Source of the DNA: Candidatus Moanibacter sp.
Lineage (GTDB): Bacteria > Verrucomicrobiota > Verrucomicrobiia > Opitutales > UBA2987
Assembly: GCA_965215885.1 (NCBI GenBank)
Contig: CBDCEW010000102.1
Location: 64,001 to 128,000 of the forward strand
Length of the DNA: 64,000 nt
Direction: 5' to 3'
Shown here: positions 50,536 to 53,252 of the stretch, piece after piece
Position numbering within the stretch: position 1 is the stretch's first letter
Layout: each line of letters begins with the position of its first letter
Translations under genes and position numbers: made by a program
Notes under the pieces: model-generated
Database searches by the model: none
The model's input: the letters and a program-made list of their open reading frames with translations, nothing else
What the model was told of the DNA's origin: nothing

Positions 50536-51513
50536 TTGCATAAAGATCAAAAACAAAGTGAACCTTTCGCGGTAGACTTCGAGTCGCTCCAATGTCGACT
50601 CGGGGCTGATCTGTTGGGTCGCCGGATGCGAAAACAGGCCGAGTTATGGGCCCGTCTCGTGCATCAGGGCCAAGGCATCCTTTCCCTTGAGAGATATCTT
50701 CCCATCGACAGGATACTCAATTCGTGCTTACGCGTTTTCGGGTTTTACGAAAGGGGAAACCGGAATTTTCGAGATTTGGGCCTTGTCGAAAATCACGTAT
50801 CACTTGCGAACCTTCCACTCCCCTTCGACGGATATCGCATTCTGCAGATGAGCGATCTCCACCTTGACCTCGATACTTCTCTCACTCCCGCTATTATCGA
50901 AGTTCTAGGCAAAGCCGATTGCGATCTGGCTGTCATAACGGGTGACTTTCGCAATACCACTACGGATTTTCACGGCGAGGCCCTTCGACAGTTGAAAAGA
51001 ATCATGAAGCATCTACCGATGCCGGTTTACGGTGTTCTCGGCAATCACGACTTTATTGAAATGGTCCCGGAACTTGAAGCATTAGGCCTGCGTATACTGC
51101 TGAACGAGAACGTTGTCCTCCAACTAAAGGATTCCACTATTCGCCTGGCCGGAGTCGACGATCCTACTTTCTACGAAACGCACGATTTGAAGGCAGCCGG
51201 CCGTAACAGAGCGAAACGCGAGTTCACCATCCTCCTCTCCCACGGACCGAAGATCTACCGTGATGCCGAAGGAGCGGATATTGATCTCATGCTATGTGGA
51301 CATACGCATGGTGGCCAGATTTGCCTCCCTGGTGGTTGGATTGTCGTCCGCAACGGCGAATGCCCTCTTCGAATGATCTCCGGTGCCTGGAGATACAGGG
51401 AGCTTTCCGGCTACACTTCCCGAGGCACCGGATGCACCGGAATCGCCATCCGGTTCAATTGTCCGCCCGAAATTACCGTGCATGTCCTCCACGCGAAATC
51501 TGTCGGATCCTAG
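50536..51513 (+). CDS. metallophosphoesterase
   Basis: SDLH, TGDF, GNHD, LSH, GHTHGGQ. Confidence 0.9.
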   Translation: MHKDQKQSEPFAVDFESLQCRLGADLLGRRMRKQAELWARLVHQGQGILSLERYLPIDRILNSCLRVFGFYERGNRNFRDLGLVENHVSLANLPLPFDGYRILQMSDLHLDLDTSLTPAIIEVLGKADCDLAVITGDFRNTTTDFHGEALRQLKRIMKHLPMPVYGVLGNHDFIEMVPELEALGLRILLNENVVLQLKDSTIRLAGVDDPTFYETHDLKAAGRNRAKREFTILLSHGPKIYRDAEGADIDLMLCGHTHGGQICLPGGWIVVRNGECPLRMISGAWRYRELSGYTSRGTGCTGIAIRFNCPPEITVHVLHAKSVGS

Positions 51514-51547
51514 CAGCCTGTCGGACTCTTTTCATCAGGCTGCTAGG
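51510..51547. repeat. short MITE family A' copy
   Basis: ctagcagcctg...caggctgctag; shares its CTAG with the adjacent MITE-A. Confidence 0.65.
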
Positions 51548-51561
51548 AATCTTATAGTAGC

Positions 51562-51876
51562 TCCAGGTTATTCATCCAAGGGGCCGAGTGGAGCCGCAGG
51601 AAAAACTCGGCGAGGCCCCTTTGTGAATAACTTGGCCGATCAGTGGTTGGCGATGGGTCAAAGAGTTTGTTTGGCTAAGGGTGAAAATATTCAAAGGCAG
51701 CCGTCCACTACGAACTTAGGAATCAGTCCGAAGAGGACTTCCGACAGAATTTCGAGTGGACGGCCTGCCTGGATGACCGAAAACGAACACTCAGTTTACA
51801 TCCTCATAACAGGATCCAACTATAAGGACTTCGCCTGGACATCCAGTGCCTTTGAAAAAAGCAAAAAGACAAACTA
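51562..51876 (+). ncRNA. IS110 bridge RNA (5' stem-loop, target-binding loop, donor-binding loop)
   Basis: Target loop guides TAGGAATC (51717-51724) and TCCGACAG (51740-51747); donor loop guides CTCAGTTT (51790-51797) and ACTATAAG (51819-51826); each pair flanks an internal hairpin inside a closing stem. Confidence 0.88.
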
Positions 51877-51889
51877 AAGGAACAAAGGG

Positions 51890-53200
51890 ATGCAGAAAAG
51901 GGAAAAAACAAATCGATATAGTGTGGTGATAGGAATTGATTGGGCGGATCAGAAAAACGATCTGTGGATCATAGAGAGCGAAACGGGAAAAGGGACCCAT
52001 CGACAGGTGGCGCAGGATGCGGTCAGCTTGCACGAATTTGCCGTAGAGATGAGAGAAAAGTATGCCAGCGTGGGCAAGCGCATGGCCATGGTGGTGGACC
52101 AGAAGCGAGGAGGGTTGATCAACTTTCTGATGGGCTTGGAGTTTGTCGATATCTATCCAGTGCATGCGGCCAGGGCGAAGGATTATCGCCGGGCGCTGTA
52201 TCCATCAGGGGCCAAGAGCGACCCGGTCGATGCGCAAATACACGCGGAGTTTTTCCTCAAACATCCCGAGCTTTTTACCAAATGTTTCATACCTGACACG
52301 GCCCAAACACGGGAGCTGAACCTGTTGTGCGAGGACCGCCGTGGATTCGTCGATCAGGCTACCAGCCTCGAACAGCAGTTGGGCAGTTGTCTGAAGCAAT
52401 ATAACCCTTTGGTCTTGAAATTGTTCGATGATCTAGGCAGTGGCCTGTGCCTGCACTTTATATTGCGTTGGCCGACCCTCAAGAAGCTGCACAGAGCATC
52501 GGAGGGTGTCTTGCGAAAGTTCTTCTATAAGCACAACTGTCGCAGTGACGCCAAAATCCAGGAGCGTCTCGAATTGATCGGTAACGCACGAGCCTTGACC
52601 GAAGATGCAGCCATCATTGAAGCATCCAGCAGAAAAGCACAGACGTTGGCCGGACAGCTTTTGACCCTGTGCCCGCAGATCAAAGCGTATGAGAAGCGTA
52701 TCAGGGAGCTATTCAGAAGCCATCCCGATGCAGCCGTGTTCAGTGGCATTCCCGGAGCCGGCGAGGTCATGAGTCCCCGGTTGCTGTGCGCGTTCGGGAC
52801 CGATCGTTCGCACTTCGAAACGGCCCAGAACATGACCCAGTGGAATGGATCCGCTCCGGTCACGATCAACAGCGGGCAGGACAAAAGAACCGGACAACCG
52901 AAACGAATGGTCAACTGGCGGTGGGCGGCTCCTACCTTCGTGCGGCAAAGTTTCGTTGAATTTGCCGAACATTCGATCCGAAACTGTGCCTGGGCAAAGG
53001 CCTTTTACCAGATCAAAAAAGAACAGGGCAAACCCCGCCAAACCATTCTTCGTGCCCTCGCTCTCAAGTGGACCCGCATTCTGTTTCGCTGTTGGCAAAA
53101 TAGCGAACGCTACGATGAGCAAAAGTATCTCCAATCGCTCCAACGCACCGGTTCACCGGTGTGGAAAAGACTTCAGCAAGCAAATGCCAACGCCTTGTAA
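51890..53200 (+). CDS. IS110 family recombinase/transposase
   Basis: IGIDWAD, AKSDPVDA (RuvC-like domain), IPGAG, APVTINSG (catalytic Ser), ALALKW. Confidence 0.95.
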   Translation: MQKREKTNRYSVVIGIDWADQKNDLWIIESETGKGTHRQVAQDAVSLHEFAVEMREKYASVGKRMAMVVDQKRGGLINFLMGLEFVDIYPVHAARAKDYRRALYPSGAKSDPVDAQIHAEFFLKHPELFTKCFIPDTAQTRELNLLCEDRRGFVDQATSLEQQLGSCLKQYNPLVLKLFDDLGSGLCLHFILRWPTLKKLHRASEGVLRKFFYKHNCRSDAKIQERLELIGNARALTEDAAIIEASSRKAQTLAGQLLTLCPQIKAYEKRIRELFRSHPDAAVFSGIPGAGEVMSPRLLCAFGTDRSHFETAQNMTQWNGSAPVTINSGQDKRTGQPKRMVNWRWAAPTFVRQSFVEFAEHSIRNCAWAKAFYQIKKEQGKPRQTILRALALKWTRILFRCWQNSERYDEQKYLQSLQRTGSPVWKRLQQANANAL

Positions 53201-53252
53201 ACACAACATGAGAAAAAACTCAAAAAATCCCTTGACGGACTACCTCAGTTTT

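What the first reader, a model, noticed from the sequence alone, without database searches (positions are those of the whole stretch)
51562..51876. Fully readable IS110 bridge RNA with target and donor guides longer than those of IS621
Seen in sequence: the non-coding left end of the IS110 folds into a 5' stem-loop (51562-51635) and two guide loops. The target loop has stem aggcagccgtccact.cgaa/ttcg.agtggacgg.ctgcct (51695-51770). It holds LTG (CT)TAGGAATC (51715-51724, matching the left target flank), hairpin agtcc/ggact, and RTG TCCGACAG (51740-51747, reverse complement of CTGTCGGA). The donor loop has stem ctggatg/catccag. It holds LDG CTCAGTTTaC (51790-51799, against the right end CTCAGTTTtC), hairpin atcct/aggat, and RDG ACTATAAG (51819-51826, reverse complement of CTTATAGT). 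Established: this is the IS621 bridge-RNA layout with a CT core. Inference: the right guides pair over about 8 nt against about 4 in IS621, giving a 15-17 bp site, and the RNA is about 310 nt. That would make it a distinct, possibly more specific programmable recombinase from Verrucomicrobiota.
Basis: partly seen in the sequence, partly recalled or inferred. Interest (0 to 1): 0.92.

Follow-up and report, generated by a model that had tools for sequence, protein, structure and literature searches.

The report
Ordinary bridge RNA of an IS110 element
The stretch is the guide ("bridge") RNA gene of an active jumping gene of the IS110 family; it works like the known IS621 system, and its guides are not really longer than those already described.

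Summary
The window holds a 1,702-bp IS110-group element, one of 10 identical copies in this genome. Its 338-nt non-coding left end encodes a bridge RNA with a 5' stem-loop, a target loop and a donor loop. Nine of the 10 copies lie between AGGAAT-CT and CT-GTCGG, as the target guides predict. The donor guides match the element's own joined ends.

The RNA is one member of a large, conserved family. A covariance model found it upstream of 159 of 173 homologous recombinase genes. In 42 non-redundant relatives the target guides change together with their own flanks.

The claim of longer guides fails. Family covariation supports 7 nt + CT + 5 nt, the same as IS621 with its published 7-bp extended right guide. 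The extra positions (-7, -8, +6) are mismatched in natural insertions at background frequency. One copy sits in a donor-like off-target site.

Two things are new here. An 8-bp outer helix closes both loops and covaries across the family. The recombinase is only remotely like IS621 (E about 1e-4). Verdict: a new member of a known kind, of modest interest.

The parts
51544..51550 (+). Left target half (LT) TAGGAAT, positions -7 to -1
   Evidence: Matches LTG 51717-23. AGGAAT is invariant in 9 of 9 canonical insertions.
51551..51552 (+). Left copy of the CT core
   Evidence: CT lies at both junctions of all 10 copies.
51553..51558 (+). First bases of the left end (right donor half, RD). TATAGT is the -10 box of the circle-junction promoter.
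   Evidence: CT|TATAG is invariant in the 44 aligned family members, which were selected on a CT|TATAG-like motif.
51564..51634 (+). 5' stem-loop of the bridge RNA
   Evidence: Minimum-energy and centroid folds. Its arms GTTATTCATC and GTGAATAAC recur in L032, L035, L102, L113, L114, L138, L172 and L183.
51691..51698 (+). P0, 5' strand (TCAAAGGC) of the outer helix closing both loops
   Evidence: Pairs with 51848-55. Seven of 8 pairs change on both sides in the family.
51699..51768 (+). Target-binding loop module: stem, CGAA/UUCG clamp, LTG, hairpin, RTG
51716..51724 (+). LTG UUAGGAAUC, covering positions -8 to -1 and core C
51740..51747 (+). RTG UCCGACAG, the reverse complement of CT+GTCGGA
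51748..51749 (+). Handshake guide of the target loop (AA), complementary to donor positions -2 and -1 (TT)
   Evidence: In the family this guide at -1 equals donor -1 in 38 of 42.
51769..51846 (+). Donor-binding loop module: stem, clamp, LDG, hairpin, RDG
51790..51799 (+). LDG CUCAGUUUAC, with one mismatch at -1 to the right end CTCAGTTTTC
51819..51826 (+). RDG ACUAUAAG, the reverse complement of CT+TATAGT
51848..51855 (+). P0, 3' strand (GCCTTTGA)
51890..53200 (+). Recombinase gene, 436 aa: DEDD RuvC-like domain plus Tnp domain
   Evidence: Pfam PF01548 at 1.2e-17 and PF02371 at 2.3e-09. D17, D70, D111, D114 and S328.
53232..53237 (+). TTGACG in the right end, the -35 box of the circle-junction promoter
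   Evidence: Counted. The spacer is 15 nt of right end plus CT, 17 nt in all, before TATAGT.
53253..53254 (+). Right copy of the CT core
53255..53260 (+). Right target half (RT) GTCGGT. Position +6 is mismatched to the RTG in this copy.
53330..53345 (-). Unoccupied target site, TTAGGAATCTGTCGGA on the minus strand. It is the other arm of the same palindromic repeat unit.

Best explanation
Window 51551-53254 is an intact and recently active IS110-group insertion sequence.

Inferred life cycle, by analogy with IS621:
- On excision its ends join around one CT core. The join creates the promoter TTGACG-17 nt-TATAGT.
- That promoter transcribes the left end into a bridge RNA of about 290 nt. The RNA has a 5' stem-loop, a linker, and an outer helix (P0) that encloses a target-binding loop and a donor-binding loop.
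[quoted passage not shown] - In the donor loop, the LDG pairs with the right end CTCAGTTT(T)C. The RDG pairs with CT+TATAG(T) of the left end.
- The 436-aa DEDD/serine recombinase then exchanges strands at the CT core.

The natural target is a motif present several hundred times in a palindromic genomic repeat of about 110 bp.

Shown here: the anatomy, the guide-to-flank matches, the family-wide covariation of stems, guides and handshake bases, and the copy number.

Inferred: transcription from the junction promoter, recombinase binding and catalysis.
For: Copies and flanks
- The genome holds 10 full copies at 100% identity.
- Nine of the 10 have left flank (T in 6, C in 3)AGGAAT-CT and right flank CT-GTCGG(A in 7, T in 2).

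Protein
- Pfam finds DEDD_Tnp_IS110 and Transposase_20.
- D17, D111, D114 and S328 are invariant in 35 relatives.
- S328 aligns with the ESG serine of ISCro4.

Fold
- The fold has z = -5.4.

Guide-to-flank matches in 42 non-redundant relatives
- LTG at -1 to -7 matches its own flank in 35, 29, 26, 27, 28, 30 and 20 of 42. The cross-pairing control is about 0.27.
- RTG at +1 to +5 matches in 36/42, 40/42, 37/41, 34/41 and 35/41. The control is about 0.28.
- The target-loop handshake base equals donor -1 in 38 of 42.
- The donor-loop handshake base equals target -1 in 38 of 42.

Structure on the 36-row alignment
- 84.3% of cells are paired, against 68.4% in shuffles (0 of 500 reach the observed value) and 29-44% when partners are slid.
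- 274 cells change on both sides, against 93.5 in shuffles.

Covariance model R1
- The window scores 116 bits.
- 159 of 173 homolog loci are hit; 35 of these were seed sequences.

Target
- The motif AGGAATCTGTCGG with up to 1 mismatch occurs 465 times in the genome, against 4 for the reversed control.

Promoter
- The junction promoter was counted.

Transcription (weak hint)
- In 3 of 4 metatranscriptome runs, all from one study, the bridge RNA region assembles as its own contig: 51606-51839, 51545-51845 and 51669-51850.
- These contigs have depth 13.7-25.3. The adjoining contigs over the 5' part of the ORF have depth 2.6-6.7.
Against: - No experiment exists for this element.
- The RNA evidence is assembled contigs from a single study. 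Contigs cannot show transcript ends or strand, and they may include DNA. No circle-junction contig was seen.
- No Rfam 15 family matched.
- In this element the donor-loop handshake base is G opposite target T. It is one of 4 exceptions among 42.
- The LDG is mismatched to its own right end at -1.
- The 44 rows used for covariation were chosen because their ends carry the motifs CT|TATAG-like and CTCAG..CT: 59 of 167 loci had both, giving 51 distinct sequences, of which 43 went into the alignment alongside the window. Donor-side conservation is therefore partly built in by selection. The target-side covariation is not.
Confidence: 0.9

Rival explanations
1. One reading: a distinct bridge RNA class whose right guides pair over about 8 nt. 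It would read a 15-17 bp site and so be more specific than IS621.
For: - In the window's RNA, complementarity runs from -8 to +6 for the ideal site TTAGGAATCTGTCGGA. The RDG matches CTTATAGT over 8 nt.
- Seven of 9 natural sites have A at +6.
Against: - In the family, own-flank matches are at control level at RTG +6 (11 of 41, control 0.20), RDG +6 (20 of 44, control 0.45) and LTG -8 (7 of 42, control 0.23).
- Base frequencies at the 256 empty genomic sites are T 0.64 at -7, T 0.25 at -8 and A 0.62 at +6. The occupied sites show 6/9, 2/9 and 7/9, so there is no enrichment.
- One of the 10 copies lies in a donor-like site, not a target-like one.
- IS621 itself uses a 7-bp RTG when one is offered, and longer RTGs in orthologues are already in print.
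Confidence: 0.08
2. The structured left end is only a cis-regulatory leader or small RNA controlling recombinase expression, as was once proposed for ISPpu9. Its resemblance to the flanks would be incidental.
For: - It lies directly upstream of the ORF. P0 ends 34 nt before the ATG.
- One RNA contig runs from the RNA region into the ORF (X3, 51655-52284).
Against: - The variable loop segments track each element's own insertion flanks across 42 relatives.
- Handshake positions follow the IS621 rule.
- Both findings are hard to explain without RNA-DNA pairing.
Confidence: 0.02

Closest known systems
IS621 (and ISCro4/IS622) bridge recombinase with bridge RNA, IS110 group. Sources: Durrant et al. 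2024, PMC11208160 (passages); Hiraizumi et al. 2024, PMC11208158 (passages); Perry et al. 2025 preprint 10.1101/2025.05.14.653916 (passages).
   Same: - The RNA is encoded in a long left end upstream of a DEDD + serine recombinase.
- A 5' stem-loop is followed by a target loop (LTG, hairpin, RTG, handshake base) and then a donor loop (LDG, hairpin, RDG, handshake base).
- The core is CT.
- The LDG ends at core C and is followed by A.
- A sigma-70 promoter is rebuilt across the joined ends.
- The target is a repeated palindromic element.
- Effective target reading is 7 + CT + 5.
- Donor-like off-target insertion occurs.
   Different: - The recombinase is 436 aa, against 326-341 aa. It is only remotely similar: E 8.8e-5 to ISCro4 and 1.7e-4 to IS621, over the C-terminal domain alone.
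- The RNA is about 290 nt, against 177 nt.
- An 8-bp outer helix P0 closes the two loop modules. The IS621 RNA ends with the donor loop at nt 177.
- The RDG pairs contiguously. In IS621 it pairs discontiguously.
- CGAA/UUCG clamps flank both loops.
- D replaces E at the second DEDD position.
IS1111-group elements with seekRNA or bridge RNA in the right end (described in Durrant et al. 2024, section 12)
   Same: Same recombinase family and the same RNA-guided logic.
   Different: - Here the right end is only 52 nt and the left end is 338 nt.
- The RNA lies upstream of the gene.
- I did not look for long sub-terminal inverted repeats.
ISPpu9 and ISPpu10 of Pseudomonas putida, IS110 elements that insert into REP sequences (seen in search listing and abstracts only)
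   Same: They insert into a highly repeated extragenic palindromic element.
   Different: The host, target sequence and recombinase clade differ. I did not compare sequences.

Membership tests
IS110 family, IS110 group (bridge recombinase + bridge RNA) | N-terminal DEDD RuvC-like domain | tested here: met
   PF01548 at E 1.2e-17, residues 14-173. D17, D111 and D114 are invariant. Position 70 is D here, where 31 of 35 relatives have E.
IS110 family, IS110 group (bridge recombinase + bridge RNA) | C-terminal Tnp domain with a conserved catalytic serine | tested here: met
   PF02371 at E 2.3e-09. S328-G329 are invariant in 35 of 35. They align with ESG of ISCro4.
IS110 family, IS110 group (bridge recombinase + bridge RNA) | The same core dinucleotide at both junctions, and a left end much longer than the right end | tested here: met
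   CT lies at both junctions of 10 of 10 copies. The left end is 338 nt and the right end 52 nt.
IS110 family, IS110 group (bridge recombinase + bridge RNA) | The left-end RNA folds into a 5' stem-loop plus two stem-loops with large internal loops | tested here: met
   Fold. Covariation. Covariance model hit.
IS110 family, IS110 group (bridge recombinase + bridge RNA) | The first loop carries guides matching the left and right target flanks and covarying with them | tested here: met
   Nine of 10 own sites. Forty-two relatives.
IS110 family, IS110 group (bridge recombinase + bridge RNA) | The second loop carries guides matching the joined right and left ends | tested here: met
   The LDG matches 9 of 10 and the RDG 8 of 8 in the window. 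The donor side is conserved across the family, so covariation there is limited.
IS110 family, IS110 group (bridge recombinase + bridge RNA) | Handshake guides pair with position -1 of the non-cognate DNA | tested here: inconclusive
   The family meets this in 38 of 42 for both loops. In the window, target -1 and donor -1 are both T, so the rule cannot discriminate. The donor-loop base is G, which could only wobble-pair with T.
IS110 family, IS110 group (bridge recombinase + bridge RNA) | A promoter is rebuilt at the circle junction, the RNA is expressed, and it is bound by the recombinase | not testable with these tools
   TTGACG-17-TATAGT was counted. RNA-library contigs cover the region but cannot prove a transcript.
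Close orthologue of IS621/IS622 | High recombinase and RNA identity. For reference, IS622 is 88% and 86.6% identical to IS621. | tested here: not met
   Only E about 1e-4 over residues 251-413. No Rfam hit.
IS1111 group | Guide RNA in a long right end downstream of the gene | tested here: not met
   The right end is 52 nt. The covariance model hit lies upstream of the gene.

The most novel reading that the evidence does not exclude
This clade may be a structurally distinct and undescribed subclass of bridge RNA. In it an outer helix (P0) ties the target and donor modules into a three-way junction. The clade is spread across Verrucomicrobiota, Acidobacteriota, Proteobacteria and enterobacterial plasmids.

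In the window P0 competes with the base of the target-loop stem for the same 4 nt (51695-98). The competition could act as a conformational switch.

The genome also preserves a natural insertion read by the donor loop, at one of only two sites that match LDG plus core outside the element copies' own guide segments. This suggests that the half-match recombination seen with IS621 in the laboratory also shapes natural transposition.
Probability: 0.3. Interest if true: 0.55.

Novelty: new member of a known kind. Interest (0 to 1): 0.33.

Why it matters
The result shows that the bridge RNA design of IS621 holds in a recombinase clade so distant that sequence similarity is barely detectable. The shared features are the loop order, the CT core, the 7+2+5 reading and the handshake bases. 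The clade adds one structural element, a closing helix.

The element is a reasonable candidate for bench testing as an alternative bridge recombinase:
- its 10 identical copies indicate recent activity;
- its natural target and donor are known;
- its genome holds hundreds of natural target sites and one natural donor-like off-target.

It does not offer the promised gain in guide length or specificity.

Tried and rejected
- **Rfam.** A scan of 51000-54000 at E up to 10 gave only a chance lncRNA hit.
- **Single-protein search.** It found no related loci in genome contigs. An alignment query was needed.
- **blastn of the RNA region against all loci.** It gave two weak hits, so sequence similarity alone is useless here.
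- **Unconstrained four-guide solver.**
  - Self scores of 29 or more occurred in 31 of 128 loci, against 2 of 512 controls.
  - It was too noisy and ambiguous about the core register. I replaced it with motif-anchored alignment.
- **LDG statistics.** The per-position LDG counts suffer from register errors, and I do not rely on them.
- **Flanks of the odd copy L010.** I tested whether they are remnants of a related element. Similarity does not extend beyond about 12-14 nt, so I rejected this.
- **L013.** I tested whether it is a second full element. It is only a left-end and 5' stem-loop remnant.
- **RNA contigs.**
  - They show no circle-junction joint.
  - Stretches without cover and contig ends say nothing firm.
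- **Tandem copies.** The assembly has no right-end-to-left-end junction (0 hits).
- **Earlier scan notes.** There are none for this place.
- **Literature.** No paper in the library holds 'bridge RNA', 'IS110' and 'three-way junction' together.
- **Durrant supplements.**
  - They do not contain this element's target, its junction, or the clade's junction motif.
  - Two of the files were cut when stored.
- **Not attempted.** I did not try structure or complex prediction.

Full report
**Observation**

- LTG 51715-24, hairpin 51725-29 / 51735-39, RTG 51740-47.
- Target-loop stem and CGAA/UUCG clamp 51695-51714 / 51751-51770.
- Donor-loop stem 51769-75 / 51840-46.
- LDG 51790-99, with one mismatch to the right end.
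- Hairpin 51800-04 / 51811-15, RDG 51819-26.

RNAfold places the 5' stem-loop at 51564-51634. The whole 337-nt leader folds at -120.6 kcal/mol, against a shuffled mean of -90.8 (z = -5.4; 0 of 100 shuffles fold as well).

**The element**

The ORF 51890-53200 encodes a 436-aa protein with Pfam DEDD_Tnp_IS110 and Transposase_20.

The genome holds 10 full-length copies at 100% identity (6.36 Mb, 105 contigs, 90% complete). It also holds three fragments: a right end at a contig start, a 210-nt piece at 97%, and an 87-nt piece at 77%.

Aligning the flanks fixes the borders.
- The left junction is ...AGGAAT-CT-TATAGT.
- The right junction is CTCAGTTTT-CT-GTCGG...
- In the window this gives core CT at 51551-52 and at 53253-54. 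The element is 1,702 bp counting one core.

The left end is 338 nt and the right end 52 nt, the IS110-group arrangement (Durrant et al., section 12).

The right end carries TTGACG (53232-37). After circularisation it would lie 17 nt upstream of TATAGT (51553-58). This is the circle-junction promoter typical of the family, counted and inferred to function. In the integrated copy only a weaker site is found, TTTTCA-18-TATAGT with 9 of 12 matches. That is one site, where shuffles give 1.2.

**Guides against natural sites**

Nine of the 10 copies have these flanks:
- left flank (T in 6, C in 3)AGGAAT-CT;
- right flank CT-GTCGG(A in 7, T in 2).

The LTG and RTG predict exactly these. The window also holds an empty site, TTAGGAATCTGTCGGA, on the minus strand at 53330-45.

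The motif AGGAATCTGTCGG with up to 1 mismatch occurs 465 times in the genome, against 4 for the reversed control. There are 256 exact copies. Thirty-five pairs are inverted and 80-84 bp apart, which marks a palindromic repeat of about 110 bp. IS621 and ISPpu9/10 also target repeats (abstracts).

**Relatives**

- A protein search found 1,570 proteins at E up to 1e-20. The nearest are 79, 79, 70 and 59% identical, and the rest are under 50%.
- In a sample of 400 other genomes of the phylum, 13 had a match at E up to 1e-30.
- I fetched 79 loci from named genomes and 80 from metagenomes.
- The clade spans Verrucomicrobiota, Acidobacteriota, Planctomycetota, Gamma- and Betaproteobacteria and others.
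- tblastn finds relatives on 1,159 plasmid records, all under 60% identity and many from Klebsiella and Enterobacter. The 12 listed are annotated as 'IS110 family transposase', except one 'hypothetical protein'.

**Covariation of guides**

Selection of rows:
- Of 167 non-own loci with a tblastn hit, 59 carried both end motifs: left end CT|TATAG-like and right end CTCAG..CT.
- These gave 51 distinct leaders.
- I aligned 43 of them together with the window.
- I dropped L093, L100, L120, L128 and L134 (leaders over 400 nt), L153 (bad coordinates), and L174 and L187 (near-duplicates).

The skeleton is conserved. The target half reads ACGAAU-[LTG]-C-hairpin-[RTG]-AG-NN-UUCG. The donor half reads ACGAAU-ACUCAGAUGUC-hairpin-CUAUAAGG-NN-UUCG.

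In 42 non-redundant rows the counts were as follows.

| Guide position | Matches own flank | Cross-pair control |
|---|---|---|
| LTG -1 to -7 | 35, 29, 26, 27, 28, 30, 20 of 42 | about 0.27 (0.57 at -1) |
| LTG -8 | 7 of 42 | 0.23 |
| RTG +1 to +5 | 36/42, 40/42, 37/41, 34/41, 35/41 | about 0.28 |
| RTG +6 | 11 of 41 | 0.20 |

- The RDG matches at +1 to +5 because TATAG is conserved. At +6 it matches 20 of 44, against 0.45 in controls.
- The target-loop handshake base equals donor -1 in 38 of 42 and target -1 in 6 of 42.
- The donor-loop handshake base equals target -1 in 38 of 42 and donor -1 in 2 of 42.
- The cross controls for the handshake bases are 0.64 and 0.58.
- This is the handshake rule of Hiraizumi et al..

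**Guide length**

The family reads 7 + CT + 5. IS621 has a 9-nt LTG and a 4-nt RTG, both including the core. Its natural and engineered sites use a 7-bp RTG, and the authors state that some orthologues have longer RTGs.

In this genome the extra complementary positions are not enriched among occupied sites.

| Position | Frequency in 256 empty sites | Occupied sites |
|---|---|---|
| -7 | T 0.64 | T in 6 of 9 |
| -8 | T 0.25 | T in 2 of 9 |
| +6 | A 0.62 | A in 7 of 9 |

With nine sites the power is low. Still, nothing supports a 15-17 bp site or higher specificity.

**Structure**

On the 44-row MAFFT alignment, the window's helices are paired in 71.1% of cells. Shuffles give 62.4% (0 of 500 reach the observed value) and slid partners give 33-45%.

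I then noticed an outer helix, P0. In the window it is TCAAAGGC 51691-98 with GCCTTTGA 51848-55, and it closes both loop modules.
- Twenty-eight of 44 rows have a P0 of at least 6 bp, against 137 of 1,564 cross pairs.
- On a 36-row alignment of the P0-to-P0 region, 84.3% of cells pair. Shuffles give 68.4% (0 of 500) and slid partners 29-44%. This alignment left out L062, L110, L122, L123, L138, L143, L145 and L172.
- In the same alignment 274 cells change on both sides, against 93.5 in shuffles.
- Seven of the 8 P0 pairs change on both sides.

In the family the two outermost pairs of that stem are unpaired in 25 and 23 of 40 rows. P0 is therefore the conserved alternative.

IS621's RNA ends with the donor loop at nt 177 and has no such helix.

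A covariance model of 165 positions and 46 pairs gave these results:
- it hits the window only at 51691-51855 (116 bits, E 8e-26);
- it hits 83 of 93 plus 76 of 80 homolog loci, 159 of 173 in all, of which 35 were seeds;
- most of the 14 misses lack upstream DNA or hold partial genes.

**Distance from IS621**

Against all solved structures, only ISCro4 (E 8.8e-5) and IS621 (E 1.7e-4) match, and only over residues 251-413. S328 aligns with their ESG serine. D17, D111, D114 and S328 are invariant in 35 relatives. Position 70 is D in 4 of the 35 aligned sequences, the window's among them, and E in the other 31.

**Odd copy**

The tenth copy (L010, contig C84) lies between CTCAGTTTA-CT and CT-TATGGGG.
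- Its left flank matches the LDG at 10 of 10 positions.
- Its right flank matches the RDG over CT+TAT.
- Similarity to the element does not extend further.
- LDG plus core T occurs only twice in the genome, once here and once at one empty site.

This looks like a natural insertion read by the donor loop. It is the LD-type half-match or off-target event reported for IS621 in laboratory data (preprint 10.64898/2026.08.31.748434, abstract and section 8).

**Transcription**

Four metatranscriptome runs from one study hold 0.38-0.74 of the sampled words. Only assembled contigs could be laid.
- The RNA region forms separate contigs in three runs: X1 at 51606-51839 (depth 21.5), X2 at 51545-51845 (13.7) and X4 at 51669-51850 (25.3).
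- The adjoining contigs over the 5' part of the ORF have depth 2.6-6.7.
- In X3 one contig spans 51655-52284.
- Contigs cannot show ends, strand or level, and DNA may be present.

This is a weak hint only.

**Host**

Named relatives of the neighbouring RibBA protein are Opitutaceae, Rariglobus, Opitutus and Coraliomargarita at 62-71% identity. This is consistent with Verrucomicrobiota.

**Verdict**

This is a correct and complete reading of a bridge RNA, but it belongs to a known kind.
- The scan has also found bridge RNAs on other DNA.
- The added value here is the family-level model, the P0 helix, and the natural donor-like insertion.
- I could not establish whether P0 is already in print.

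Noticed in passing
window 51691-51698 with 51848-51855; family alignment A3: An 8-bp outer helix (P0) closes the target and donor modules. It covaries across the family and competes with the base of the target-loop stem (51695-51700 / 51765-51770).
   Followed up: yes
L010 (own genome, contig C84, about 54652-56355, minus strand): One of the 10 copies lies in a donor-like site. The LDG matches at 10 of 10 positions and the RDG over CT+TAT. Only one other site in the genome matches LDG plus core. It looks like a natural insertion read by the donor loop (half-match).
   Followed up: partly
window 53255-53345 and 51497-51550; genome-wide: The target lies in a palindromic repeat of about 110 bp bounded by inverted TAGGAATCTGTCGGA motifs. 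The genome has 256 exact 13-mers, and 35 inverted pairs lie 80-84 bp apart. The nature of the repeat (REP-like or MITE-like) was not studied.
   Followed up: partly
L013 (own genome, contig C6, 7714-7799, minus strand): A lone remnant of the left end and 5' stem-loop of a related element, 77% identical. No loops or recombinase gene lie behind it.
   Followed up: partly
window 51798 (LDG position -1): The LDG has A where the right end has T. Similar -1 mismatches appear in L101, L126, L168 and L170. Their function is unknown.
   Followed up: partly
L108, L069 and the enterobacterial loci L039-L047, L058, L061: The guide solver suggests that a subclade in Alteromonas and Pantoea (L108, L069) uses a GT core, with right end CTCAGGGC|GT and left end GT|AATATGG. 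The solver gave this only for L108; its top solution for L069 had a CG core, and the GT reading there is my own from the right junction. The covariance model still hits these two loci and the enterobacterial loci, at 48-67 bits. I did not check the core of the enterobacterial loci.
   Followed up: no
L052 (1281-1440 and 3012-3171), L053, L033, L109: Several homolog loci carry two covariance model hits. In L052 they are 1,731 nt apart on the same strand, which suggests adjacent or tandem element copies.
   Followed up: no
window residue 70 of the recombinase (about 52097-52099): The second DEDD position is D in 4 of the 35 aligned sequences, the window's among them, and E in the other 31.
   Followed up: partly
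window 51527 to 53316 (RNA run X2): One contig joins these two places with 34 other letters between them. It is probably another copy of the repeat unit without the element.
   Followed up: no
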